Origin: Dietzia sp.
Lineage (GTDB): Bacteria > Actinomycetota > Actinomycetes > Mycobacteriales > Mycobacteriaceae
Assembly (NCBI RefSeq): GCF_036741115.1
Contig: NZ_DAINST010000002.1
Span: forward strand, 2,463-66,462
Length of the DNA: 64,000 nt
Direction of reading: 5' to 3'
Made by a program: the position numbers and the translations under genes. The first letter of the stretch is position 1; each line of letters starts with the position of its first letter. Shown here piece by piece: positions 38,908 through 52,930 of the stretch. The notes beneath the pieces were generated by a model. The model saw nothing but the letters and a program-made list of their open reading frames with translations. It was not told the DNA's origin and searched no databases.

Positions 38908-40113
38908 CTAAGCGCGTGGCCCGGTGGGGTCTGTGGGTGCGGCCGCCCTCTCGGGCTCGTCGGCGCCGACCACCCACATCGAGAAGTACTGGCTCGCCCC
39001 GCCGTAGGCGTGCCCGAAGGCGAGGCGCGCGCCGGGGACCTGGTGCTCGTCTGCCCGTCCCATTACCTGCCGCGCCGCCTCGAGGAAGCGGATCAGGCCC
39101 GAGGCGCCGATGGGGTTCGAGGAGAGGACGCCGCCCGAGGGGTTGACGGGGAGGTCCCCGTCCGGCGCCGTCGCGCCCTCAGCGACGAGCTTCCAGCCGT
39201 CGCCGGCCGGGCAGAAGCCGAGGTTCTCGAGCCACATCGGTTCGAACCAAGAGAACGGTACGTAGATCTCGGCGACGTCGATCTCCGCGCGCGGATCGGC
39301 GATCCCGGCCTCCGCCCACAACGCTGCCGCGGCGTCACGCCCGGCGAGAGGGCTGCGGTGGTTTCGGCCCGAATACGTCCCCGCCTCGGTGCGCATGGAG
39401 GTCGCGTGGATCCATGCGACTCCGCGCCCTTCGGCCTCAACCGAGTGCGCGGCGTCGGCGTCGCCGATCACGATCGCGGCGGCGCCGTCGGAGGAGGGGC
39501 ACGTCTCGTCGTAGCGGATGGGGTCCCAGAGCATTTGGCCCGCCATGACCTTCTCGACCGTGAGGTCCGGCTGGTGGAGGTGCGCCTTGGGGTTCCGGGC
39601 ACCCGCCTGCCGGTCCTTGACCACGACCTTCGCGCCGGTATCGACGGGGGCCCCCGAGGTCTCGATGTACGAGCGGACGTGCGGCGCGAAGTGTCCGCCG
39701 GCGCCCGCGCCGACCGGCGCCGCGAACGGCACGGGCAGGCTGAGCCCCCACATCGCATTGGACTCGGACTGCTTTTCCCAGGCCAGCGCGAGCACGCGAC
39801 GGAAGCGCCCGGACTGGACGTGCGAGGCTGCCGCAATCGCGGTGGAGCCGCCCACCGAGCCGGCCGTGTGCACGCGGAGTAGCGGCTTCCCCACTGCTCC
39901 GAGCGCATCGGCGAGCATGAACTCGGGGATCATCACGCCCTCGAAGAGGTCGGGCGCCTTGCCGACGATGATGGCGTCGATATCGTCCCAGCCCACTCCG
40001 GCGTCCGCCATCGCCTCGTCGATCGCCTCGCGGCACAGGCCGGCCATCGAGACGTCGAGGCGTCTCGAGGTGTGCCTCGTCTGTCCGGTGCCGAGGACCG
40101 CTGCGGTGCTCAT
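38908..40113 (-). CDS. thiolase-fold lipid-transfer protein (SCP-x type, Ltp3-like)
   Basis: 401 aa. VHTAGSVGGSTAI, CPSSDGAAAIVIG, NPSGGVLSSNPIGASG. Confidence 0.85.
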   Translation of the reverse strand: MSTAAVLGTGQTRHTSRRLDVSMAGLCREAIDEAMADAGVGWDDIDAIIVGKAPDLFEGVMIPEFMLADALGAVGKPLLRVHTAGSVGGSTAIAAASHVQSGRFRRVLALAWEKQSESNAMWGLSLPVPFAAPVGAGAGGHFAPHVRSYIETSGAPVDTGAKVVVKDRQAGARNPKAHLHQPDLTVEKVMAGQMLWDPIRYDETCPSSDGAAAIVIGDADAAHSVEAEGRGVAWIHATSMRTEAGTYSGRNHRSPLAGRDAAAALWAEAGIADPRAEIDVAEIYVPFSWFEPMWLENLGFCPAGDGWKLVAEGATAPDGDLPVNPSGGVLSSNPIGASGLIRFLEAARQVMGRADEHQVPGARLAFGHAYGGASQYFSMWVVGADEPERAAAPTDPTGPRA

Positions 40114-41225
40114 CGCTCGTCCCTTCCCTCGAGGACTGCCACGAGGTTCTGCTGCAGGAGGTGCCCGCCCGTGGCGTGCCCGAGCGCCCTGTCCGCACGG
40201 CCCTCGTGGATCGCGCGGGCCGCGTACCCGATCCGCTCGAGGCCTGCGGAAAACAGCGGGTCCCCGAACATCGCGCCGCCGGACGGCGTGATCTCCACGC
40301 CGTCGCCGAGGCCGAGCTCGGAGCGCACGATGAGCTCCTGGTGGCTGTAAGGAGTGTGGAGCTCGGCGACGTCGACCGCGGCGGTGTCACCTGCCCCGGC
40401 AGCCGCCGCGAGCTCCGCCGCACGCCGCACGGAGAGGCTCGTGGCGAGGTCCCGGCCGCCGATCTCGGCGGAGTCGATGGCCTGCCCCATTCCCGCGATC
40501 CACGCGGGCCGCGCGCAGAGCTCTCGTGCTCTGTCGCCCGCGGCGAGGATCACGGCGCACGCCCCGTCGGTGACCGGCGGCACGTCCCATTGGCCGAGGG
40601 GCGGGGCGACGTCTTCGTCGCTTCCATACCCCTGGCCGGCGCCAGCGCCTTCCCCGGCGTCGGCCGCCCCGCGCCCGTGTACCCGTTCCACCACCGCGTC
40701 CATATCTTCCCGAGAGAATCGGCCCGAGTCGATGCCCGCCCGCGCCTGGAGCGCGGCGAGATGGTGGCGTCCCGGCCACAGCGGGGACTGTGTGTACGGG
40801 TCGAGGGACATCGCCATGGAGGCATCGAGGTCTCCGGAGGCGGAGGCCTTGCCGAATCCGTAGACGAGTGCCGTGTCCGCGTGGCCCGCGCCGATGGTGA
40901 GCCACGCCTCGAACAGCGCCCACGCGGCATCCCCCTCGACGTGCGATTCCTGCACCGGCGGGTGGGCACCGATGGAGTCGAGCGCGGAGATAAACGAGAA
41001 CGCGCGCCCGGCGAGGTAGTCCGACGAGCCGGAGCACCAGAAATCGATGCCCGTCCTGTCGAGCCCGGTCTGCTCGAAGCACCGCGCGAACACCGGGGCC
41101 AGCATCTCGACGCCGTTCGTGGTTCCCGGGGTCTCCGGAACGTACGCGGCGTGCGCGAAACCGACCACCGCCACCTCGCGCGGCCCGGCTCCGTTCGATC
41201 CGCCCATGTCGTTATCTCCCGCCAT
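40110..41225 (-). CDS. thiolase-fold protein (Ltp4-like partner)
   Basis: 371 aa. 4-nt overlap with the downstream ltp3-like gene. VVGFAHAAY..., PVTDGACAVILA, TPSGGAMFGDPLFSAGL. Confidence 0.8.
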   Translation of the reverse strand: MAGDNDMGGSNGAGPREVAVVGFAHAAYVPETPGTTNGVEMLAPVFARCFEQTGLDRTGIDFWCSGSSDYLAGRAFSFISALDSIGAHPPVQESHVEGDAAWALFEAWLTIGAGHADTALVYGFGKASASGDLDASMAMSLDPYTQSPLWPGRHHLAALQARAGIDSGRFSREDMDAVVERVHGRGAADAGEGAGAGQGYGSDEDVAPPLGQWDVPPVTDGACAVILAAGDRARELCARPAWIAGMGQAIDSAEIGGRDLATSLSVRRAAELAAAAGAGDTAAVDVAELHTPYSHQELIVRSELGLGDGVEITPSGGAMFGDPLFSAGLERIGYAARAIHEGRADRALGHATGGHLLQQNLVAVLEGRDER

Positions 41226-41240
41226 GTCTGTCGCGGCCCT

Positions 41241-42272
41241 CTACAGGTGTCGCTCGTAGCTCGAGGGATCGGCATCCGATTCCCCCGAGGGTTCGAAATA
41301 CTCGATGGACGCCATCGAATGCGTCCGCTCCGCCTCGGGCCGCCAGTGTGCGCGGACTCGCATCCCCATGCGCACCTCGGACGCCTCGCAGCCGAGCACG
41401 AGGTGTTGGATCGGCAGGTCGGCCCCGTCGAGGAGGATGTACGCCGTCACATAGGGCGGCGTGACCTTCTGCCCCGCGAACGGCACGTTGACGATCCCGA
41501 ACGTGGTCACGGTGCCGTGGTCGGCGACCTCGACATACTCGCCCATCGGCACGCCGTCCGAGGGGCAGTAATCGCGCGGTGGCACGTAGACCTCGGGCCC
41601 GTTCGACCGGCGCCGCCCCACGATCCGCCCCTCGACGAGCCCGCGGAGGAAGCGCCGCTCGGAGAAGCCGGCCGTGTGCGTGTAGTCGAGCTCTACGGGG
41701 GTCACGAGCCGTCCCGATTCGTCGAGCCCGGCACGGCTGGGAATGACGGCGGACGCCGCTTCTTCCTCGGGCCCGCCCGCGCTGCCCGCCGGGACGAAGT
41801 ACAGATCGCGGACCGTCCCCCGCGGCTCGGGGACCCAGCGCGCCTCGACGCGCATCCCGGTGGCCATGTCTGCGGCAGAGCCTGCGGCCACGACGTGGAG
41901 AAGCGAGGTATCCGCCCCGTCGAGGCGGATCAGTGCCAGCGCGTGCGGGGCGGACAGCTGCATCCGCGGGATCGGCGCCGACACCCAGGTCCAGGACTCG
42001 ACAGTGCCGCCCGAGCCCAGCTCGACGAGAGCATCCACCTGCAGACCCTCGTGCGTGGAGGGGTCGAACTCGACGGGCGGGGCGTGGACGCGGCCGGAGC
42101 GGTCGCGCACGCCCACGAGGCGTCGCTCGCGGAGCCCCGTGAAGAAGGCGCCGAGGATGGGGCCCGTCGATCGCGTGTAGTCGAAGGACGGCGCGAGAGG
42201 GGCTGCGAGTGGCTCACCCTCCGGGGGGACGATGTCGACTGCGGCGGGGGCGAGCGCGGAGCTGGGTGCCAT
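41241..42272 (-). CDS. tandem DUF35 OB-fold protein (Rv3521-like)
   Basis: ATG at 42272. Two repeats of the DUF35 pattern (FFTGLRERRLVGVRDRSGRVHAPP... and FLRGLVEGRIVGRRRSNGPEVYVPPRDYCP...). It sits upstream of the ltp pair, as in Rv3521-ltp4-ltp3. Confidence 0.75.
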   Translation of the reverse strand: MAPSSALAPAAVDIVPPEGEPLAAPLAPSFDYTRSTGPILGAFFTGLRERRLVGVRDRSGRVHAPPVEFDPSTHEGLQVDALVELGSGGTVESWTWVSAPIPRMQLSAPHALALIRLDGADTSLLHVVAAGSAADMATGMRVEARWVPEPRGTVRDLYFVPAGSAGGPEEEAASAVIPSRAGLDESGRLVTPVELDYTHTAGFSERRFLRGLVEGRIVGRRRSNGPEVYVPPRDYCPSDGVPMGEYVEVADHGTVTTFGIVNVPFAGQKVTPPYVTAYILLDGADLPIQHLVLGCEASEVRMGMRVRAHWRPEAERTHSMASIEYFEPSGESDADPSSYERHL

Positions 42273-42430
42273 ATTTCGCAGTGAACCACAGCCCGCGGCC
42301 GCCCGGACACGATTTCCGAACACCCGTACAGACAGGTGTCCATCGGTGTAGGAACGAGGAGAGGAACGAATCGAGGGCGGCGCGCTTCCGGCGTTCACGC
42401 CGCCACCGCAGCGCGCACCGGGAGAACACG

Positions 42431-44080
42431 ATGACCGCCGAGCAGGACGAACAGGCCACAGCGAACGATCGGCCAGAACAGACTCCGACCCCGCGCGTGC
42501 CGCCGGCCGCCGGCGTCCCCAACCCGGCGACGGGCACGAACGTGACCAGTGCTTTCGAGATCGCACGCGTCTCCCCCGAGCGCCCCGCTCTCATCGCCCC
42601 GGACGGAACCGAGGTCTCCTACGGCGAGTTCGCCTCCCGCACCCACCGCCTCGCCCACGGGCTCCGCGCGCTCGGCCTCGGCGCCGGGGACTCGATCGTC
42701 CTCCTCGCCCCGAACGGCCGCGAGTTCCTCGAGGTCTATTTCGCCGCGCTCGAGATCGGCCTCTACATCGCTCCGGCGAACTGGCACCTCGCGGGCCCCG
42801 AGGTCGCCTACATCCTCGACAACTCCGAGGCCGGCGCCTTCGTCGCGGCCGAGCGATTCGCGGAGGTCGCCGTCACCGCGCGCGAATCGGCCGCTCTCGA
42901 TCCCGCCCGCTGCTTCGCCATCGGCGAGGTCCCCGGCTTCCGCCCGATCGACGAGCTCGCCGCGGGCCACCCGGACACCCCGCCGGACGGGCGGACGCTC
43001 GGCGGGCCGATGCTCTACACGTCGGGCACGACCGGGCGCCCCAAGGGCGTGCGCCGCCCGCTCACCGGGGCGAGCCCGGACGAGATCACGGTCCCCAACT
43101 ACTTCTTCTTCGCCGGCTTCGGAATCGAGGCCCCGGACAACGTCCACATCTGTGGCTCGCCGCTGTACCACACGGCGGTGCTCAATTTCGTGGTCATCTC
43201 GCTGCAGCTCGGGCAGCTCGTCGTGCTCATGGACCGCTGGTCGCCGGAGGCCATGCTGCGACTCATCGAGCGCCACGGCGTGACCCATTCACACATGGTC
43301 CCCACGCAGTTCTCGCGCCTCCTCGAACTCCCCGAGGACGTCCGCGAACGGTACGATGTGTCGAGCCTGCGCACCGTGATCCACGGTGCTGCCCCGTGCC
43401 CTCTACATGTGAAGAGGGCGATGCTGGAGTGGTGGGGCCCGAAGCTCACGGAGTACTACGCGGGCACCGAGGGCGGCGGTTGCACGATCACCGGAGAGGA
43501 GTGGCTGCACAAGCCCGGCAGCGTGGGACGGCCGTGGGCCACCTCCGAGATCCGCATCCTCGATGACGACGGAGGTCCGCTCCCCACCGGCGAGATCGGC
43601 AACGTCTACGTGGAGATGCGCGGCTCGTCCTTCAGCTACTACAAGGACCCCGACAAGACCGAAGGTGCTCGGGTCGGGAAGATGTTCACCATGGGCGACC
43701 TCGGCTACCTCGACGCCGACGGCTATCTCTTCCTCTGCGATCGCAAGAACGACATGATCATCTCCGGCGGGGTCAACATTTATCCGGCCGAGGTCGAGTC
43801 CGAGCTCCTCGCGCTCCCCGAGGTCCGCGACGCCGCGGTGTTCGGCATTCCGCACCCGGATTGGGGCGAGGAGGTCAAGGCGGTCGTCGAGCCGTCTGCG
43901 GGCTCGGTGCCCCCCAACGAAGCCGCCGCGGCCGCTCTCGCCGAGTCGATTCTCTCCGGGCTCTCCGGCCGGCTCGCGCGGTTCAAGATGCCGCGCTCGG
44001 TCGATTTCGTCGAGGCTCTGCCACGGCAGGAGAACGGCAAGCTCGTCAAGCGCGTGCTCAAGGATCCGTACTGGACCTAA
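42431..44080 (+). CDS. acyl-CoA synthetase (FadD19-like size, 549 aa)
   Basis: ATG at 42431 after GGGAGAA. LYTSGTTGRPKGV, YYAGTEGGG, GDLGYLDADGYLFLCDRKNDMIISGGVNIYP, and C-terminal NGKLVKR. Confidence 0.85.
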   Translation: MTAEQDEQATANDRPEQTPTPRVPPAAGVPNPATGTNVTSAFEIARVSPERPALIAPDGTEVSYGEFASRTHRLAHGLRALGLGAGDSIVLLAPNGREFLEVYFAALEIGLYIAPANWHLAGPEVAYILDNSEAGAFVAAERFAEVAVTARESAALDPARCFAIGEVPGFRPIDELAAGHPDTPPDGRTLGGPMLYTSGTTGRPKGVRRPLTGASPDEITVPNYFFFAGFGIEAPDNVHICGSPLYHTAVLNFVVISLQLGQLVVLMDRWSPEAMLRLIERHGVTHSHMVPTQFSRLLELPEDVRERYDVSSLRTVIHGAAPCPLHVKRAMLEWWGPKLTEYYAGTEGGGCTITGEEWLHKPGSVGRPWATSEIRILDDDGGPLPTGEIGNVYVEMRGSSFSYYKDPDKTEGARVGKMFTMGDLGYLDADGYLFLCDRKNDMIISGGVNIYPAEVESELLALPEVRDAAVFGIPHPDWGEEVKAVVEPSAGSVPPNEAAAAALAESILSGLSGRLARFKMPRSVDFVEALPRQENGKLVKRVLKDPYWT

Positions 44081-44513
44081 TGCCCAAGTGTGTGAGCCGG
44101 AGTAAATGCGGCGAAAGGGCCTTTGATTTCAGGTGCCGCTGTCCTCGGGCGACTTCACGCTCGACGCCGCGGGCCCGCTGACTCGCTCGTCTCTTCCGGC
44201 GCGCACGTCTTCCTATGCTGCCGATCGCAGCTTAGTCCGGTGCATCGAGTGGCGCTCCTTGAGGCGTGTGTGCCGCCCGAGCGGCACCACGCCGAGCTGC
44301 CCTCCCCGCACGATGGGCTCGTCTGACGGCTGACGCCGCGGTCGACTCTTGCTCGGCGCCTAGTCGACCACAACGGCCACGCCGCCTACATGACCGTGTG
44401 GCCGAAAGAGTTTGATGTGCCAGAGCTACTCTTTGGCGACGCGTTGATCCTCACCGAAGGGAATGCCCGGCGAGCTAACTGGTTGATTCTCCGGACAGAT
44501 GCTGTCTGAGATC

Positions 44514-46547
44514 TCAATTGAGGTCCCTCCATACGCGATGCCGTTCTTGGGCAGATGACCTGAGAACCTCTCGCATCAACCGTCCGTGGTCGTCAATCTC
44601 GGCCTCGCCCCACATAGTCCTCGAATGGGTAATCGCCGCCATGATCTGGAACTTCAAGGACTCCCGGTCGGACCGGTACTGCTTCTCCTTCGCCGCAGCG
44701 GAAAGGTTATTGCGCTTGCTGTTCTCCGACCTTGACATAATCGCGAGGTTGCCGAAGCTGTCGAGAACCTCGGAGGGCAGCCGAACATGCCCGGCAGCTG
44801 TGTCAGGATTCTGTGGTTCGAAGTGTTCGATAGACGTGCGATAGCGAAAAGCGAAGCTGCCCGCATCGATCAATCTTTCATCGACAACAACTCCGTCGGT
44901 GAGCTCCGCCAAAGCTGAGTCCCCGGAATCGAGTCGGTTCCACAGCAGGTAGTCCAAGTAGTTGAAGAGGAAATGCGGCACGCCCACGCCCCGGTCGACC
45001 GCCTCCGGGCCTTCTGTTTCACCGATTTGGGGCCAGAGATATTCTGAGCGTCTGGACGCCAGAGCGTTCAAGGAATCGAGATAGCGCTCGCCGTCGACAT
45101 CCCCCTTGACGTGCTTAAACCAGAGGATTTCAAGGAAAGCGTAGAGGAAGTTCTTGTATGTTCGCCGCGAATCGGTGACCTGAAACATCGACTGTATGTG
45201 GATGATCCGATCATGCACACGTTCAGGCAGCTCATCTCCGTCACGCAAGGAACCGCCCGGGAAGGTGTTCCGCGGCGATAGTTTGTAACTGCCTCTCGAT
45301 CCCGTCCTGTGGGGCCGGTGAAGAACCCACAAAGAGTCATTTTCGCTCACATTCTTATTCTGGTCAGTCTTGATGACGTAGTTGTCGAATAAGAACCGCA
45401 CGATGAAGAGAGTCCACATAAAGCCCCGAACGTCTTCAGCGGTACGAACATATTCGTCAAAGAGATCGATGAGCCGCTTATCGTCGAGGCCGAACGGGCG
45501 GTCTGAATCCGCCCAGTCGAAGGTCGGCGAGGACGGATTCTTCTCTATTCTCAACGATACGTCGAGCCTAAGTGCGTGGAGCAAGAGGTTCGGGAAATCG
45601 ATAATTGACTCGTAACGATCGAGGTCTTTTTCTTGGCCATCCTCAACGACCGAGCACTCAGCATCGAGCACGCCTCCCAAGGTCGTCCCCACTGACTCTG
45701 CTGGCGTGACCTGTCCGCAATCCGCCACGAGTTCGTCCCACGAGTCAACTTCGATTCGATCCCAGTTCACGCCGAAGATGTCGCTTCGATTGTTCGAAAG
45801 GAAGCCCATTTGCAGATACCGTGTCATATCGGAGCACGCGTCCCATAGAGCCGTGAGCGTCGATCGCTCATTGTGGGATTCCTCCAGCTTGTTCAGCAGT
45901 CGCGCCTTAACGATCTCGTGCTTCGAGAGCTGCTCACCCCGGCTGTTCATGATCTCGAAATAGTGGTTGAGGTCCGTGTCGCCGGGGAGCGAAGCCCGCA
46001 CAACAACCACGGAATCTATTAGATACTCGAGATCATTCTTCTCTACAAAAACTGCCTCACCGTTCGCAGCCACAATGCAACGAGTGATCACCTGGATACC
46101 ATTCGCGATCTCGTCGGTAGCGAGAGTCCTCGCGGGCGACTCGAGTGTATAGAGGTCGTTCGGGTATTGAGCAAGGGCGGCGAGATCGGATTGCGACCGT
46201 TGTCGCCCCTCGAAGGTGATCGTCGTCGCCGGGACGACGGCGTCTCCGAGAAGTTCTCGGCATACCGGGTGGCTGAGAATCAATGCCAGCGTAGTGAGAC
46301 GCTGCTGGCCATCCACGACCTCCAGCCTCTCTACCGGAGCTCCGTCGATAATTCGAGTGTCGCTGTGGACAACTATGGTCCCGAGGTAGTAATTGGGGAC
46401 ACCCTTGATTCGCGCGTCGCGTACGTCCCTCAGTAGCTGCTCAATCTGCTCCTCTCCCCAGGCATAGGCGCGCTGGTAGACGGGGATAACGTAGCTGCTG
46501 TCCTCAAATAACGCCCGGACGGTGAGGTCTTCGGGTGGAGTGCTCAC
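44514..46547 (-). CDS. DUF262 (ParB-like NTPase/nuclease) + DUF1524 (His-Me finger) protein, GmrSD/BrxU/SspE class
   Basis: 677 aa. N-terminal IPVYQRAYAWGEEQIEQLL, VDGQQRLTTLALIL, FEIMNSRGEQLSKHEIVK. C-terminal FRYRTSIEHFEPQNPD ... FGNLAIMSRSENSKRNN. GTG start 2 nt after the upstream stop, with a GAGGGAG RBS. Confidence 0.9.
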   Translation of the reverse strand: MSTPPEDLTVRALFEDSSYVIPVYQRAYAWGEEQIEQLLRDVRDARIKGVPNYYLGTIVVHSDTRIIDGAPVERLEVVDGQQRLTTLALILSHPVCRELLGDAVVPATTITFEGRQRSQSDLAALAQYPNDLYTLESPARTLATDEIANGIQVITRCIVAANGEAVFVEKNDLEYLIDSVVVVRASLPGDTDLNHYFEIMNSRGEQLSKHEIVKARLLNKLEESHNERSTLTALWDACSDMTRYLQMGFLSNNRSDIFGVNWDRIEVDSWDELVADCGQVTPAESVGTTLGGVLDAECSVVEDGQEKDLDRYESIIDFPNLLLHALRLDVSLRIEKNPSSPTFDWADSDRPFGLDDKRLIDLFDEYVRTAEDVRGFMWTLFIVRFLFDNYVIKTDQNKNVSENDSLWVLHRPHRTGSRGSYKLSPRNTFPGGSLRDGDELPERVHDRIIHIQSMFQVTDSRRTYKNFLYAFLEILWFKHVKGDVDGERYLDSLNALASRRSEYLWPQIGETEGPEAVDRGVGVPHFLFNYLDYLLWNRLDSGDSALAELTDGVVVDERLIDAGSFAFRYRTSIEHFEPQNPDTAAGHVRLPSEVLDSFGNLAIMSRSENSKRNNLSAAAKEKQYRSDRESLKFQIMAAITHSRTMWGEAEIDDHGRLMREVLRSSAQERHRVWRDLN

Positions 46548-46549
46548 TA

Positions 46550-48019
46550 TTACGCTCCCTCAGCTACTTGGTCCATGATGTTCCAACTCCGCTCGAAGAA
46601 GTAGTGGAGATCCTCGTATCTTTCGAAAGACGCAGGGCTTGATACCCGGACGATGCGAACAAAATCCGCGGGATCTATTGATTGCCGGAGCTCGGAGAAC
46701 AGATTCACTGCCGGAAGGTTGCCTCGATCGGTGATACCAAGAGCGTAGTTATTCACCGTCGCCCGCTTAAGCGTGCGCATCTCGACTCGTAGTGCCATCG
46801 CATAGCGGACAAAGAGTGTCACGGCTCTGTCGAGGAGCTCGCCACCAAATCGATCAACGTAGTAGAAGGTCAGGCATCGGATGAGATCGAGAACGAACGC
46901 GAATCGTCTATCTCCCGAGAACCGAGCCATGTGGGAATTCAAGGCGTCGAGCACAGAAATGACATTCGCAGGTAGTCGGATCTCGCCAACAGGCCCCTCT
47001 GATCGATGAGCGTCATCGAAAAATCCGACGGCCCGACCGAGGCGATAGTAGTGACTAGTCATCTGGAAAAACGTCTCGCCGTTGATGATCGGCTGATCGA
47101 CCTGAAACGGAAAATCGATCGAACGAATAACCCCGTAGCGAAGCAGAGTGTCATTTGACGCTCGATAGCTATCCGTGAAGTTCTTCGCATAGAGGTACGG
47201 AAGCGACCAAGGCGCGCCCACTTGCGTACCGCCTTCTTCCCGGATCCCTTTGAATATGTCAACGTTACCGCTGGTGAATCCCTTTTCGGGCACATCGCGG
47301 CCGTTGGACCAGCGCTTGATCTTGAAGAGGACGTCGTTGAACAACATCGATACGGACGCCGCCGGCATCTCCTCCCAGAGCCTCACCATCTCGTCGCGCA
47401 TGTTGATCATGCCCGGCAGCGTCCTCATCTCCCTGAGGTGAAAAGCCTTGAGCAGATCTGTCGTGTACAGCTCCTTGCCTCGGGTGTTCTGGGAGTCGAA
47501 CATCTGGAATGCCGCGTCGAGGTCGTCGAGAGTCATGATCACGACCTCACACTTGCCGAGCAAAGTGTCGAGAAGTTCTTGCCGGTCGTCTTTTGACCAC
47601 GTTCCCAGCATTTCTCGAAGGTGAGCGAAATTCGCCGCGAGGTTGGCTACGCTCCGCCTTCGGCCGTGCTGGGGAACATCAATGCTACGTAGTCGATCGA
47701 GATCAGGAAAGGTTGACGAGCTTGAGTGGACGATCTCGGGCGACTCGCAGAGAGCGATGGCAAGGAGAGCGAACGTGAAGAAGCGTTGCTGTCCGTCAAC
47801 GATATCCGCGGAGCCTTCCGGCACAGTCCCGGGCGGACGATGAGTGATGATCGTGCCGACCCGGTACGAGCTCTTTTCTCGAAAGGCCCAGATGTCACGG
47901 ACGAGCTCATCAACGTTTCTTATAGACCACGAATAAGGCCGCTGGTAGTCCGGAATCGCCAATTCGGTCGCGAGCAGATCGCCAACGGACTTGAGTTGAG
48001 CCAGATTACTTCTTCCCAC
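46550..48019 (-). CDS. DUF262-only protein with a C-terminal region of about 300 aa of unknown fold
   Basis: 489 aa. IPDYQRPYSWSIRNVDELV, VDGQQRFFTFALLAIAL, FQMFDSQNTRGKELYTTDLLK. No His-Me/HNH motif was seen in the C-terminal part. Confidence 0.85.
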   Translation of the reverse strand: MGRSNLAQLKSVGDLLATELAIPDYQRPYSWSIRNVDELVRDIWAFREKSSYRVGTIITHRPPGTVPEGSADIVDGQQRFFTFALLAIALCESPEIVHSSSSTFPDLDRLRSIDVPQHGRRRSVANLAANFAHLREMLGTWSKDDRQELLDTLLGKCEVVIMTLDDLDAAFQMFDSQNTRGKELYTTDLLKAFHLREMRTLPGMINMRDEMVRLWEEMPAASVSMLFNDVLFKIKRWSNGRDVPEKGFTSGNVDIFKGIREEGGTQVGAPWSLPYLYAKNFTDSYRASNDTLLRYGVIRSIDFPFQVDQPIINGETFFQMTSHYYRLGRAVGFFDDAHRSEGPVGEIRLPANVISVLDALNSHMARFSGDRRFAFVLDLIRCLTFYYVDRFGGELLDRAVTLFVRYAMALRVEMRTLKRATVNNYALGITDRGNLPAVNLFSELRQSIDPADFVRIVRVSSPASFERYEDLHYFFERSWNIMDQVAEGA

Positions 48020-48025
48020 TGGCCG

Positions 48026-48031
48026 AGAGTA
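48026..48031 (-). promoter_or_regulatory. candidate -10 hexamer (TACTCT, TAnnnT) for a leaderless transcript of the island operon
   Basis: On the minus strand the sequence reads gagg-TACTCT-cggcca-GTG. The hexamer therefore ends 6 nt before the GTG start at 48019, the geometry seen for leaderless actinobacterial mRNAs. No SD sequence precedes the GTG. Confidence 0.25.
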
Positions 48032-48109
48032 CCTCGCCCGGGCCCGTGGCTTCCCGGATTCAGGCGCGTAATCAACGAGCCTAACGAGCGCCTATTCGAC
48101 CGTATCGGC

Positions 48110-50471: not shown

Positions 50472-50867
50472 CTAGTCCTCCGTGATGAGCGGGTACACGC
50501 CGTTCTCGTCGTGGACCTCACGGCCGGTGACCGGCGGGTTGAAGACGCAGAGCATGACCATCTCCTCCTCGCAGATCACCTGGTGCTTCTCGTGACCGTT
50601 GAGCAGGTACATCGAGCCGGCGGCGAGCGGGTACTCGGTGTCGTTGTCGAGGTCGCGCAGCGTCCCCTTGCCCTTGACCAGCCACACGGCCTCGATGTGG
50701 TTGGCGTAGTGGAACTCGTTCTCGGTTCCGGCCGGGATGGTGGTCTCGTAGAAGCTGAAGCCCACCTTGTCGCCTCCGAGCACGATGCGCTTCGAGCGCC
50801 AGGTGTTCTCCTCGTTGGAAACGTCGCGGTCGGTTCCGGTGATCTCGTCGGTAGTACGGACGATCAT
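50472..50867 (-). CDS. ectC: L-ectoine synthase
   Basis: 131 aa cupin. MIVRTTDEITGTDRDV...WRSKRIVL...GFSFYETTIPAGTENEFHYANHIEAVWLVKGKG...HEKH. Confidence 0.95.
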   Translation of the reverse strand: MIVRTTDEITGTDRDVSNEENTWRSKRIVLGGDKVGFSFYETTIPAGTENEFHYANHIEAVWLVKGKGTLRDLDNDTEYPLAAGSMYLLNGHEKHQVICEEEMVMLCVFNPPVTGREVHDENGVYPLITED

Positions 50868-50945
50868 GTTGAGACTCCTTCTCGCATGTGTGTTACTACT
50901 TTTGTCTAGCGATTCGCGTCGCGGGGTTCCCCGGACGGCTCCCGA

Positions 50946-50981
50946 CGGCGGAGGCCGGAACTTTCCGGCCGGGCGCCGCCG
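50946..50981. other. compound stem-loop in the ectB-ectC intercistronic gap
   Basis: Inner stem ggccgga (50953-50959) / tccggcc (50964-50970) with a 4-nt loop. Outer stem cggcgg (50946-50951) / ccgccg (50976-50981). Confidence 0.4.
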
Positions 50982-50994
50982 CGGACCACCGAGG

Positions 50995-52314
50995 TTACGC
51001 CGAGAGCAGCTCGTCGATCACGTCGTAGCAGATCTTCGAGCCCTCTTCGAGGTCCTCTCGGGAGATGACCAGCGGCGCGAGGAACTTGACGACCTCGTCG
51101 TTCGGCCCCGCGGTCTCGACGAGTAGCTTGCGATCGAAGCAGCCGGCAAGGACCTCCTCGGCGAGCTCGGGCCGCTTGGTGAACGCGATGCCGAAGGCCA
51201 TGCCGCGGCCGCGCAGCTCCAGCTCCTCCGGGTACTTCTCGACGAGCTTGCCGAAGAACTCGCGGAGCCACTCGCCGTTGGCGAGGGTGTGCTTCTGCAG
51301 CTTGTCGTCCGACCAGAACTTGTCGAGGGCCTTAGCGGCGGTGACGAACGCGAGGTTGTTGCCGCGGAAGGTGCCGTTGTGCTCGCCGGCAGCCCAGACG
51401 TCGAGGTCCGGGCGGAAGAGGGTGAGCGCGAGCGGCAGGCCGTAGCCGCCGATCGACTTCGACAGTGTAACGATGTCCGGCTTGATCCCGGCGAACTCGA
51501 ACGAGAAGAACTCGCCCGTGCGGCCGCAGCCCATCTGGACGTCGTCGACGATGAGGAGGATGTCGTGGCGGACGCAGAGGTCGTTGAGGGCGCGCAGCCA
51601 CTCGGCGCGCGCGGCGTTGATGCCGCCCTCACCCTGGACGCACTCGACGATGACGGCGGCTGGCCGGTTGATGCCCGAGCCCGAGTCCTCGAGGACCCGC
51701 TCCATCCACTGGAAGTCCTCGGTGATGCCGCCGAAGTAGTTGTCGTACGGCATGGGGGTCGCGTGGACGAGGGGGACGCCGGCGCCCGCGCGCTTCATCG
51801 AGTTGCCTGTCACCGACAGCGAACCGAGGGTCATGCCGTGGAACGAGTTGGTGAAGTTGAGGATCGCCTCGCGGCCCGTGACCTTGCGGGCCAGCTTGAG
51901 CGCCGACTCCACGGCGTTCGTGCCCGTCGGTCCGGGGAACATGACCTTGTAGTCGAGGCCGCGCGGCTCGAGGATCTTGTCCGTGAACGTCTGGAGGAAC
52001 TCGCGCTTGGCGACGGTGAACTTGTCGAGCGAGTGGGTGATCCCGTCGCGCTCGATGTACTCGAGGAGCGCGGCCTTGAGATCGTCGTCGTTGTGGCCGT
52101 AGTTGAGCGCGCCGGCGCCGCCGAAGAAGTCGAGGTACTGCTCGCCGCTCTCGGTGGTGAGGCGCACGCCCTTCGAGGAATCGAAGACGTCGGGCCAGTT
52201 GCGCGAGTACGAGCGGACCTCGGACTCGCGATCGCCGAAGATCTGCACGTCCGAGTCGCCCTCGTAGGCGGCGATGTCCTCTGGAACCTCGTTGTCGTTC
52301 TGCTTGTCTGTCAT
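50995..52314 (-). CDS. ectB: diaminobutyrate--2-oxoglutarate transaminase
   Basis: ATG at 52314 after AAGGAG. SEVRSYSRNWPDVF, GAGALNYGHN, FHGMTLGSLSVTGN, DDVQMGCGRTG, and PLP-Lys region TLSKSIGGYGLP. Confidence 0.95.
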   Translation of the reverse strand: MTDKQNDNEVPEDIAAYEGDSDVQIFGDRESEVRSYSRNWPDVFDSSKGVRLTTESGEQYLDFFGGAGALNYGHNDDDLKAALLEYIERDGITHSLDKFTVAKREFLQTFTDKILEPRGLDYKVMFPGPTGTNAVESALKLARKVTGREAILNFTNSFHGMTLGSLSVTGNSMKRAGAGVPLVHATPMPYDNYFGGITEDFQWMERVLEDSGSGINRPAAVIVECVQGEGGINAARAEWLRALNDLCVRHDILLIVDDVQMGCGRTGEFFSFEFAGIKPDIVTLSKSIGGYGLPLALTLFRPDLDVWAAGEHNGTFRGNNLAFVTAAKALDKFWSDDKLQKHTLANGEWLREFFGKLVEKYPEELELRGRGMAFGIAFTKRPELAEEVLAGCFDRKLLVETAGPNDEVVKFLAPLVISREDLEEGSKICYDVIDELLSA

Positions 52315-52390
52315 CGAAATCAGCTCCTTGTGGGTAATTCCACGTGGTGAATCGTGATTAGCCGCAGCTCGCGCAGGCGCGCGGAAACCG

Positions 52391-52930
52391 TTAGGCGATG
52401 GTGTAGAGATCTTCCGGCTCGTGGCCCTCGCCCAGATCGGCGGCCGAGAGGTAGTCCTCCTTGACGAGCTCCTTGCCGCGATCGCGTGCGACGGAACCGA
52501 AGAGCTTCTGCGAAGCCTCGTTGTCCGGGCTGATCGTGGTGCGCAGGCGGACCACGCCTCCCGGCTCGAGGCGATCGAGGATAGCATGGACCATTCGCGC
52601 CGCGAGGCGCTTGCCGCGCTGGTCGGCGTCAACGCCGACCTGCCACAGGAAGAAGGTGTCCGACTCGGAGGGGCGGGAGAAGCCGGTGACGAAACCGACG
52701 ACCTTGCCCTCTACCTCCGCGACGACCGAGGTCTCGGCGAATTCCTTCGCCCACAGCGTATAGGCGTAGGTGGTGTTGAGGTCGAGCACCCCGGTATCCC
52801 GGGCAACCTCCCACATCCGCAGTCCATCGGCGACGACGGGCACCCGAAAGGTGACTCCATCTGATTCGCCGGAGCCGCCGTTTCCGGCTGCTCCGTTCTC
52901 GGATTCAGGTCCCTCTGTGAAGGTAGTCAT
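52391..52930 (-). CDS. ectA: L-2,4-diaminobutyrate acetyltransferase
   Basis: GNAT fold. FRVPVVADGLRMWEVARDTGVLDLNTTYAYTLWAKEF, WQVGVDADQRGKRLAARM. First gene of the ectABC order. Confidence 0.9.
   Translation of the reverse strand: MTTFTEGPESENGAAGNGGSGESDGVTFRVPVVADGLRMWEVARDTGVLDLNTTYAYTLWAKEFAETSVVAEVEGKVVGFVTGFSRPSESDTFFLWQVGVDADQRGKRLAARMVHAILDRLEPGGVVRLRTTISPDNEASQKLFGSVARDRGKELVKEDYLSAADLGEGHEPEDLYTIA

What the first reader, a model, noticed from the sequence alone, without database searches (positions are those of the whole stretch)
44514..48019. Paired-DUF262 cassette: a DUF262-only protein translationally coupled to a DUF262+DUF1524 nuclease, a candidate undescribed defence system
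Two adjacent minus-strand genes both open with the DUF262 signatures: (I)P-x-YQR-x-Y-x-W, DGQQR, and F-x-x-x-N/D-x-x-G-x-x-L.
- The downstream 677-aa protein also ends in a DUF1524-type His-Me finger (SIEHFEPQ ... GNLAIMSRSENSKRNN).
- The upstream 489-aa protein instead has about 300 aa with no motif I recognise.
- The genes are separated by 2 nt (TAA-TA-GTG), with a GAGGGAG RBS inside the upstream gene, so stoichiometric co-expression is likely.

Established knowledge: fused DUF262-DUF1524 proteins (GmrSD, BrxU, SspE) are modification-dependent or phosphorothioate-sensing nucleases. The original GmrS/GmrD is a DUF262 + DUF1524 pair. A DUF262 paralogue paired with an already complete DUF262-DUF1524 enzyme, standing alone without BREX, Ssp/Dnd or methyltransferase genes, is not an arrangement I know to be characterised.

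Inference: the extra subunit could be a sensor, regulator or specificity subunit, or a decoy against phage inhibitors.
Basis: partly seen in the sequence, partly recalled or inferred. Interest (0 to 1): 0.85.

Follow-up and report, generated by a model that had tools for sequence, protein, structure and literature searches.

The report
TgvAB-type two-gene restriction system
The two genes are real and clearly work as a pair, but they belong to the TgvAB family, a two-protein enzyme that cuts chemically modified phage DNA; it was characterised in 2024 and is already catalogued, so this is an ordinary new member.

Summary
Two intact, tightly linked minus-strand genes lie in a 3.6-kb low-GC islet (about 55% against about 70% GC).

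- **Gene A (489 aa):** DUF262 plus Pfam DUF7834.
- **Gene B (677 aa):** DUF262, a helical linker and a DUF1524 His-Me nuclease. All catalytic residues are intact.

The claim that the system is undescribed does not hold. This architecture and gene order are those of TgvAB from Vibrio cholerae VPI-2. There, both genes, both DGQQR motifs and the TgvB His-Me site are needed to restrict phages with glycosylated 5-hydroxymethylcytosine.

- **Link to TgvA:** TgvA itself scores as DUF262 + DUF7834. Profile comparison of the A family with TgvA gives 99.9% probability.
- **Link to TgvB:** B aligns with TgvB through the linker.
- **Link to the published homologue list:** both proteins are 32-36% identical to a pair in the authors' own TgvAB list.
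- **Co-occurrence:** a B-type gene directly follows the A-type gene in all 77 informative genomes of 80 examined.
- **Context:** stand-alone operons are the norm (1,341 against 79 embedded in Type I R-M), and DefenseFinder reports TgvAB.

What stays open is the target modification in this actinobacterium and the role of DUF7834, which has no solved structural relative. Verdict: new member of a known kind, low interest.

The parts
46550..48019 (-). tgvA-like gene (489 aa): DUF262 NTPase/sensor domain plus DUF7834 all-helical domain, no nuclease
   Evidence: ORF. Pfam GmrSD_N + DUF7834. The A family against V. cholerae TgvA by hhalign gives probability 99.9%, E=7e-35. AF2 model pLDDT 90.2.
47438..47962 (-). 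DUF262 (GmrSD_N) domain of A, residues 20-194, with Q26-R27, D75-G-Q-Q-R79 and F174...N178
   Evidence: These residues are invariant in 71 homologues.
46649..47398 (-). DUF7834 domain of A, residues 208-457, conserved all-alpha domain of unknown role
   Evidence: Pfam E=4e-47. The same domain is found in TgvA VC1767, E=3.4e-38. The AF2 model of this region alone has pLDDT 91.6 and no PDB match with E<8. No profile similarity to B.
46548..46561 (-). A/B junction: GAGGGAG (46555-46561), stop TAA (46550-46552), 2-nt spacer TA (46548-46549), then the GTG start of B
   Evidence: Sequence. In 67 homologous loci the junction is an overlap of 8 nt (31), 4 nt (15), 11 nt (8) and similar. tgvA/tgvB overlap by 8 bp.
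44514..46547 (-). tgvB-like gene (677 aa): DUF262, helical linker and DUF1524 His-Me nuclease (GmrSD architecture)
   Evidence: ORF. Pfam. BLASTP against TgvB residues 1-399: 28% identity over 422 columns, E=4e-34. Against the B. longum TgvB-list hit: 36%, E=3e-63.
45894..46514 (-). DUF262 domain of B, residues 12-218 (Q25-R26, D79-R83, F197...N201)
44568..44957 (-). DUF1524 (GmrSD_C) His-Me finger nuclease domain of B, residues 531-660. Catalytic H575 lies in SIEHFEPQ; N600, N609 and N614 lie in GNLAIMSRSENSKRNN
   Evidence: Pfam. H575, N600 and N609 are invariant in 59/59 homologues and N614 in 56/59.
44400..48100 (.). Low-GC islet (about 51-61% in 200-nt windows against about 70% in flanks) holding only the two genes. 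No integrase, tRNA or flanking repeats
   Evidence: Neighbours are metabolic genes: AMP-binding ligase, GST-like, DUF2332, ectC/ectB.

Best explanation
The cassette is a stand-alone member of the TgvAB family, a two-subunit GmrSD-like Type IV (modification-dependent) restriction system. A high-GC actinobacterium acquired it horizontally as a 3.6-kb islet.

**Shown here**
- The domain architectures, intact motifs, gene order and tight coupling.
- Homology of both proteins to TgvA and TgvB and to the authors' homologue set.
- Strict co-occurrence of the two genes across bacteria and at least one archaeon.

**Taken from the experiments on TgvAB**
- Neither protein works alone.
- The DGQQR (NTP-binding and hydrolysis) motifs of both DUF262 domains are required, and so is the His-Me site of the B subunit.
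- The system restricts phages whose DNA carries glycosylated 5-hydroxymethylcytosine. Phages that lose the modification escape.

**Inferred for this locus**
- A and B are made in near-equal amounts from one transcript and assemble into a hetero-complex.
- The two DUF262 NTPase domains sense modified DNA and license the DUF1524 nuclease of B to cut incoming phage DNA.
- A (DUF262 + DUF7834) is the nuclease-less partner that B needs for activity.
- The base modification recognised in this host is unknown.
For: **Architecture and integrity**
- A is DUF262 + DUF7834 and B is DUF262 + DUF1524.
- every family-invariant catalytic residue is present in both window proteins.

**Homology to TgvAB**
- V. 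cholerae TgvA (VC1767) has the same DUF262 + DUF7834 architecture (E=3.4e-38), as do two other proteins from the authors' TgvA list.
- hhalign of the A family against TgvA gives probability 99.9%, E=7e-35, over A 20-429. The C-terminal region alone gives 95.3%, E=2e-8.
- B against TgvB, 28% over 422 columns, E=4e-34.
- A and B against the Bifidobacterium longum pair in the authors' Table S5, 32% (E=4e-58) and 36% (E=3e-63).

**Co-occurrence and coupling**
- the A family occurs in at least 590 species. A B-type gene lies directly downstream in all 77 informative loci of 80.
- junctions are mostly 8- or 4-nt overlaps, as in tgvAB.

**Published function**
- both genes and both motif sets are required, and the target is glucosyl-5hmC DNA.
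- 1,341 stand-alone operons against 79 embedded in Type I R-M.
- DefenseFinder reports TgvAB.

**Second functional example**
- the E. coli homologue (34% and 32% identical to A and B) carries its His-Me motif at E582/H583. These are the residues mutated in the ECOR17 GmrS1/GmrSD2 doublet, which independently needs both genes.

**Horizontal acquisition**
- GC trough.
Against: - Identity to V. cholerae TgvA is low: 26% by BLASTP, confined to DUF262, and 20% over the profile alignment.
- The window protein belongs to a different subclade (FDSQNTRG motif) from TgvA (FFETQNTGG).
- The available TgvA and TgvB sequences were cut at about 400 aa, so the TgvB nuclease domain could not be aligned directly.
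- No experiment exists for any actinobacterial member.
- Glucosyl-hmC phages are, to my knowledge, not described for actinobacteria, so the substrate may differ.
- The junction here is a 2-nt spacer rather than the usual overlap.
- The DefenseFinder TgvAB model could not be run. The PADLOC 2023 library only gives N-terminal DUF262 matches to HEC-06, Orf5 and SspE models.
- No physical A-B complex has been shown for any family member.
Confidence: 0.9

Rival explanations
1. A genuinely undescribed defence system. On this view a DUF262 paralogue paired with a complete GmrSD enzyme is a new arrangement, mechanistically distinct from known systems.
For: - The PADLOC-DB 2023 and NCBIfam libraries give no specific system-level match.
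- DUF7834 has no solved structural relative, and no paper in the held library mentions it by that name.
Against: - The arrangement is TgvAB.
- TgvA carries DUF7834, and profile homology spans the whole protein.
- The authors' own homologue table contains pairs 32-36% identical to A and B.
- DefenseFinder reports the system.
- Two further two-gene GmrSD systems are published.
Confidence: 0.03
2. B is a self-sufficient single-chain GmrSD/BrxU-type enzyme, and A is an independent or accessory DUF262 protein. A might be a regulator or an anti-inhibitor decoy, not needed for catalysis.
For: - B has the complete GmrSD architecture and resembles single-chain enzymes.
- The TgvAB authors themselves raise the possibility that TgvA counters a phage inhibitor.
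Against: - In TgvAB and in the ECOR17 doublet, the GmrSD-like subunit alone gives no protection, even when overexpressed.
- DGQQR mutations in TgvA abolish defence.
- No informative locus has A without an adjacent B-type gene (0 of 77), and start and stop codons mostly overlap.
Confidence: 0.05
3. A GrwAB-type or SspE/DndI-type system: a relative that senses 7-deazaguanine or phosphorothioate rather than a TgvAB-type enzyme.
For: - The best structural and PDB sequence matches for the DUF262 part are SspE and DndI.
- GrwAB is also a two-gene DUF262 pair.
Against: - Gene order is the reverse of GrwAB, where the GmrSD-like gene comes first. GrwB's C-terminus is reported to be distinct from TgvA's, whereas A shares DUF7834 with TgvA.
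- No ssp, dnd or methyltransferase genes appear among the called neighbours, and no hsd genes anywhere in the window.
- The matches to SspE and DndI cover only about 90 N-terminal residues.
Confidence: 0.02

Closest known systems
TgvAB (VC1767/VC1766) of Vibrio cholerae VPI-2, a two-protein GmrSD-family Type IV restriction system (PMC11411939; bioRxiv 10.1101/2024.04.05.588314)
   Same: - Gene order A then B on one strand with coupled ORFs.
- A is DUF262 + DUF7834 and B is DUF262 + linker + DUF1524.
- QR, DGQQR and FxxxN motifs occur in both proteins, and the His-Me H...N...N motif in B.
- The catalytic His of B is at residue 575, against 571 in TgvB.
- Profile homology covers essentially the whole of A and at least the first 400 aa of B.
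   Different: - Stand-alone rather than embedded between hsdS and hsdR. This is the commoner situation.
- A 2-nt spacer instead of an 8-bp overlap.
- A different subclade of the A family, 20-26% identical to TgvA.
- High-GC actinobacterial host.
- Substrate untested.
GmrS1/GmrSD2 doublet of E. coli ECOR17 ('GmrSD-ECOR17', PMC12373910)
   Same: - A DUF262-only protein plus a DUF262-nuclease protein, both required.
- The E. coli homologue of the window pair (483 + 680 aa, 8-nt overlap) is 34% and 32% identical to A and B.
- Its EH active site lies at residues 582/583, the positions mutated in GmrSD2.
- It belongs to the same FDSQN(T/A)RG subclade as the window's A.
   Different: - Identity of ECOR17's genes with the E. 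coli locus examined here is inferred from residue numbering only.
- The E. coli copy lies in a defence island beside hsdR and Hhe.
- It is inhibited by T4 Ip3, and no comparable inhibitor is known for actinophages.
GrwAB of WASA-lineage V. cholerae (PMC12137116)
   Same: A two-gene GmrSD-like system with DUF262 in both proteins. Both are required, and it depends on DNA modification.
   Different: - The gene order is reversed, with the GmrSD-like GrwA first.
- GrwB carries several other unknown domains that the authors report as distinct from TgvA.
- It also targets 7-deazaguanine DNA.
Single-chain GmrSD / BrxU / SspE / HEC-06
   Same: B has their DUF262-linker-DUF1524 architecture. The Foldseek and PDB sequence matches of the DUF262 part are to SspE, DndI and BrxU.
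   Different: - Those enzymes act as single proteins (homodimers).
- Here an obligate DUF262 + DUF7834 partner gene is always present.
- PADLOC HEC-06, Orf5 and SspE models align only with about 90 N-terminal residues.

Membership tests
TgvAB (two-gene GmrSD-like Type IV restriction) | Upstream subunit with an N-terminal DUF262 carrying QR, DGQQR and FxxxN motifs and no nuclease domain | tested here: met
   Pfam GmrSD_N residues 20-194, E=1.6e-25, with no nuclease family hit. Q26-R27, D75-R79 and F174/N178 are present and invariant in the family.
TgvAB (two-gene GmrSD-like Type IV restriction) | C-terminal region of the upstream subunit homologous to that of TgvA (VC1767) | tested here: met
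   Both carry Pfam DUF7834: window A at E=4e-47 and TgvA at E=3.4e-38. hhalign of the C-terminal region alone gives probability 95.3%, E=2e-8; the full length gives 99.9%.
TgvAB (two-gene GmrSD-like Type IV restriction) | Downstream subunit with DUF262 + helical linker + DUF1524 His-Me nuclease, homologous to TgvB | tested here: met
   Pfam. BLASTP against TgvB residues 1-399 gives 28% over 422 columns, E=4e-34, including the linker. H575, N600, N609 and N614 are conserved. The TgvB nuclease domain itself was not available, because the sequence was cut at about 400 aa.
TgvAB (two-gene GmrSD-like Type IV restriction) | Adjacent same-strand genes in the order A then B, with overlapping or nearly abutting ORFs, conserved as a pair | tested here: met
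   TAA-TA-GTG junction. The pair is conserved in all 77 informative loci, and junction overlaps of 8 or 4 nt dominate.
TgvAB (two-gene GmrSD-like Type IV restriction) | Detected by the authors' MacSyFinder models or by DefenseFinder TgvAB models | not testable with these tools
   The models are not available here. As a proxy, A and B are 32% and 36% identical (E=4e-58 and 3e-63) to hit 7 of the authors' Table S5, from Bifidobacterium longum.
TgvAB (two-gene GmrSD-like Type IV restriction) | Both genes required, and restriction depends on a phage DNA modification (glycosylated 5hmC for TgvAB) | not testable with these tools
   This needs experiments. It is known only for V. cholerae TgvAB and the ECOR17 doublet.
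TgvAB (two-gene GmrSD-like Type IV restriction) | Embedded in a Type I R-M operon (origin of the name, not a requirement) | tested here: not met
   There are no HsdR, HsdM or HsdS homologues anywhere in the window. The authors found 1,341 stand-alone operons against 79 embedded. Here 27 of 80 loci have hsd genes nearby, which is a lower bound.
GrwAB | GmrSD-like gene first; second gene has DUF262 followed by several domains distinct from TgvA | tested here: not met
   The order here is DUF262-only first and GmrSD-like second. A's C-terminus is the TgvA-type DUF7834. GrwB sequences were not retrievable, so the distinction from GrwB rests on the authors' statement.
Single-chain GmrSD / BrxU / HEC-06 | One DUF262-DUF1524 protein that is sufficient on its own, with no dedicated partner gene | tested here: not met
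   A dedicated DUF262 + DUF7834 partner gene lies directly upstream here and in all 77 informative homologous loci. Whether B alone is sufficient was not testable.
SspE / DndI (phosphorothioate-sensing) | Association with sspBCD or dndBCDE modification genes; similarity beyond the DUF262 core | tested here: not met
   Neighbours are metabolic genes. PADLOC SspE and PDB SspE/DndI matches cover only about 70-110 N-terminal residues.

The most novel reading that the evidence does not exclude
The actinobacterial branch of the TgvAB family may recognise a DNA hypermodification other than glycosylated 5-hydroxymethylcytosine, for example one used by actinophages. On this reading DUF7834, a confidently modelled all-alpha domain with no solved structural relative, would be the module that sets substrate specificity or gates the partner's nuclease. 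That would make this clade a handle on how two-subunit GmrSD enzymes read modified DNA.
Probability: 0.3. Interest if true: 0.45.

Novelty: new member of a known kind. Interest (0 to 1): 0.15.

Why it matters
The locus adds a stand-alone, horizontally acquired TgvAB-type system in a high-GC actinobacterium, found on a metagenome contig. It also shows that Pfam DUF7834 is the TgvA-specific domain. The A-B pairing is obligate in all 77 informative loci examined, drawn from a family found in at least 590 species.

None of this changes current understanding. The open questions are general to the family and were already raised by its discoverers:
- why the GmrSD-like subunit needs a nuclease-less paralogue;
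- what DUF7834 does;
- which modifications are read.

The locus could serve as an actinobacterial test case, but it is not a discovery in itself.

Tried and rejected
- **PADLOC-DB 2.0 and NCBIfam scans.** These gave only N-terminal DUF262 matches to HEC-06, Orf5 and SspE models, and nothing in NCBIfam. The 2023 library predates TgvAB, so the absence of a system-level hit says nothing about novelty.
- **Literature search for 'DUF7834'.** No paper.
- **Is DUF7834 a nuclease-less copy of the GmrSD linker?** hhalign of the A C-terminal family against the B family gave probability 0.2%. Foldseek of the isolated domain against the PDB gave no hit with E<8. The idea is not supported.
- **Finding V. 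cholerae TgvA by profile search.** The top 120 hits and the largest clusters were other Vibrio species, Klebsiella, E. coli, Salmonella and Citrobacter. The sequence came instead from Table S5 of PMC11411939.
- **GrwB sequence for a direct comparison.** The stored supplement was cut, so it was not available.
- **Mobile-element signatures around the islet.** There are no flanking direct or inverted repeats beyond chance, no Rfam family match, and promoter and terminator matches at the level seen in shuffled sequence.
- **Pseudogene or decayed remnant.** Rejected, because both ORFs are intact and keep all family-invariant residues.
- **A:B complex model.** Not attempted, because the structure tool takes single chains only.


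Full report
**1. The observation**

The window contains two intact minus-strand ORFs: A at 46550-48019 (489 aa) and B at 44514-46547 (677 aa).

Pfam assigns these domains:
- A has GmrSD_N/DUF262 (residues 20-194, E=1.6e-25) and DUF7834 (residues 208-457, E=4e-47).
- B has GmrSD_N (residues 12-218, E=1e-30) and GmrSD_C/DUF1524 (residues 531-660, E=1e-9).

The two genes exactly fill a GC trough, about 51-61% GC in 200-nt windows against about 70% outside. I found no flanking repeats, no Rfam family and no mobility genes. The neighbours are metabolic genes: an AMP-binding ligase, a GST-like protein, DUF2332 and ectC/ectB. The same sequence occurs on a JGI metagenome contig. There A is called 19 codons shorter, but the conserved L16 and the structure model favour the GTG at 48019.

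**2. The pair is an obligate, widespread module**

- The A architecture (DUF262 + DUF7834) was found in at least 590 species genomes across many bacterial phyla and in a Methanobrevibacter.
- In the best 80 loci, a same-strand homologue of B lies directly downstream of the A homologue in all 77 loci that have enough downstream sequence. In five of these it is split or truncated. The other three loci end at a contig edge.
- The stop of A and the start of B usually overlap: by 8 nt in 31 of 67 loci, by 4 nt in 15 and by 11 nt in 8.
- All family-invariant residues are present in the window proteins. In A these are Q26-R27, D75-R79, F174/N178 and the DUF7834 positions W215, W237, F256-K257-G258, G314, F317-F318, Y324, D389 and R411. 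In B they are Q25-R26, D79-R83, F197/N201 and the His-Me residues H575, N600, N609 and N614. The genes therefore look functional.

**3. What it is**

The literature holds this exact arrangement. TgvAB of V. cholerae VPI-2 comprises TgvA (VC1767, DUF262 only) followed by TgvB (VC1766, DUF262 + DUF1524), with ORFs that overlap by 8 bp. Findings on TgvAB:
- Neither gene protects alone, even when overexpressed.
- DGQQR substitutions in either protein abolish defence, and so do TgvB H571A and N602A.
- The system restricts T-even phages that carry glucosylated or arabinosylated 5hmC. T2 and T4 mutants that lose glucosylation escape.

[quoted passage not shown] A third report describes an E. coli ECOR17 GmrS1/GmrSD2 doublet. 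It needs both genes, is blocked by T4 Ip3 and has its active site at E582/H583. DefenseFinder outputs 'TgvAB' as a system. As early as 2015, DUF262 genes were noted to be enriched next to GmrSD genes, and RloF of Campylobacter Type I loci was recognised as such a protein. One A homologue in the database is in fact named RloF.

**4. Membership tests**

Table S5 of the TgvAB paper supplies TgvA, TgvB and their detected homologues, each cut at about 400 aa.
- TgvA scores as GmrSD_N + DUF7834 (E=3.4e-38), as do the Pasteurella and Bifidobacterium proteins from that table.
- BLASTP of A against TgvA finds only the DUF262 part (26%, E=6e-16). Profile comparison of the A family with TgvA plus its Cytophaga orthologue gives probability 99.9%, E=7e-35, over A 20-429. 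The DUF7834 region alone gives 95.3%, E=2e-8.
- B aligns with TgvB over 422 columns, including the linker (28%, E=4e-34).
- A and B are 32% and 36% identical (E=4e-58 and 3e-63) to the B. longum pair listed by the authors as a TgvAB hit.
- The E. coli homologue is present in 304 of 5,426 complete genomes. It comprises 483 + 680 aa with an 8-nt overlap and lies beside hsdR and Hhe. It is 34% and 32% identical to A and B, and its SVEHFSP motif places E and H at residues 582/583. These match the ECOR17 GmrSD2 mutant numbering, so that doublet is very probably the same family. This last link is an inference.
- Embedding in a Type I R-M operon is not met here: there is no hsd homologue in the window. 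It is not a defining feature, because the authors count 1,341 stand-alone operons against 79 embedded. In my sample, 27 of 80 loci have hsd genes nearby, and none of the actinobacterial loci do.
- GrwAB is excluded by gene order and by A's TgvA-type C-terminus.

**5. Mechanism**

- **Shown here:** the architecture, the intact motifs, the tight coupling and the obligate pairing.
- **From experiments on relatives:** both subunits and both NTPase motifs are needed, together with the His-Me site, and restriction depends on DNA modification.
- **Inferred:** A and B form a hetero-complex in which two DUF262 NTPase/sensor domains control the single DUF1524 nuclease of B.

The AF2 model of A is confident (pLDDT 90.2). 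Its whole-chain structural neighbours are SspE, DndI and BrxU, matched through the DUF262 part. DUF7834 modelled alone (pLDDT 91.6, all-alpha) has no PDB neighbour and no profile similarity to B's linker, so its role remains unknown. The target modification in this host also remains unknown.

**6. Verdict**

However, the system is already characterised, named and catalogued. This is a new, stand-alone, horizontally acquired member of a known kind, and interest is low. The residual novelty lies in a possibly different substrate in actinobacteria and in the function of DUF7834. Both are open questions for the family as a whole, not features of this locus.

Noticed in passing
window 47962-48019: The public metagenome gene call for A (JGI 3300014092, contig Ga0121367_100082) starts at the TTG 19 codons downstream of the GTG, giving 470 aa. 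That start removes a conserved N-terminal segment (L16) and a predicted beta-strand, so it is probably too short.
   Followed up: partly
window 50472-52632 (-) and upstream: An ectoine biosynthesis cluster (ectC at 50472-50867, an ectB-type aminotransferase, then an acetyltransferase) lies about 2.5 kb from the islet. The mechanical ORF for ectB (545 aa) is over-extended compared with the 439-aa gene call.
   Followed up: no
window 38908-44080: There are two thiolase-like genes, a gene I took from its translation alone to encode a DUF35/OB-fold-type protein, and a divergent AMP-binding acyl-CoA ligase. These look like a lipid or steroid side-chain degradation cluster bordering the islet. The 434-nt gap between the ligase gene and the end of B has host-like GC and no recognisable feature.
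   Followed up: no
L082 (E. coli LST200A, NZ_CP110858.1 2061931-2076959): In E. coli the homologous pair lies in a defence island between a Type I hsdR / M48 peptidase pair, IS remnants and the anti-phage gene hhe. RefSeq annotates both genes only as 'DUF262 domain-containing protein', so public annotation does not yet carry the TgvAB name.
   Followed up: partly
L056:5715-7635; also L016, L019, L024, L055: In five of the 77 informative loci the B-type gene is truncated or split by frameshifts while the A-type gene stays intact. This may reflect decay, possibly linked to the toxicity reported for overexpression of the ECOR17 doublet.
   Followed up: no
family-wide (Table S5 of PMC11411939; loci L001-L080): The TgvA-type family splits into at least two sequence subclades: FFETQNTGG (V. 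cholerae, Cytophaga) and FDSQN(T/A)RG (the window, E. coli, Bifidobacterium and most loci). Both are covered by Pfam DUF7834. Whether the subclades differ in substrate is unknown.
   Followed up: partly
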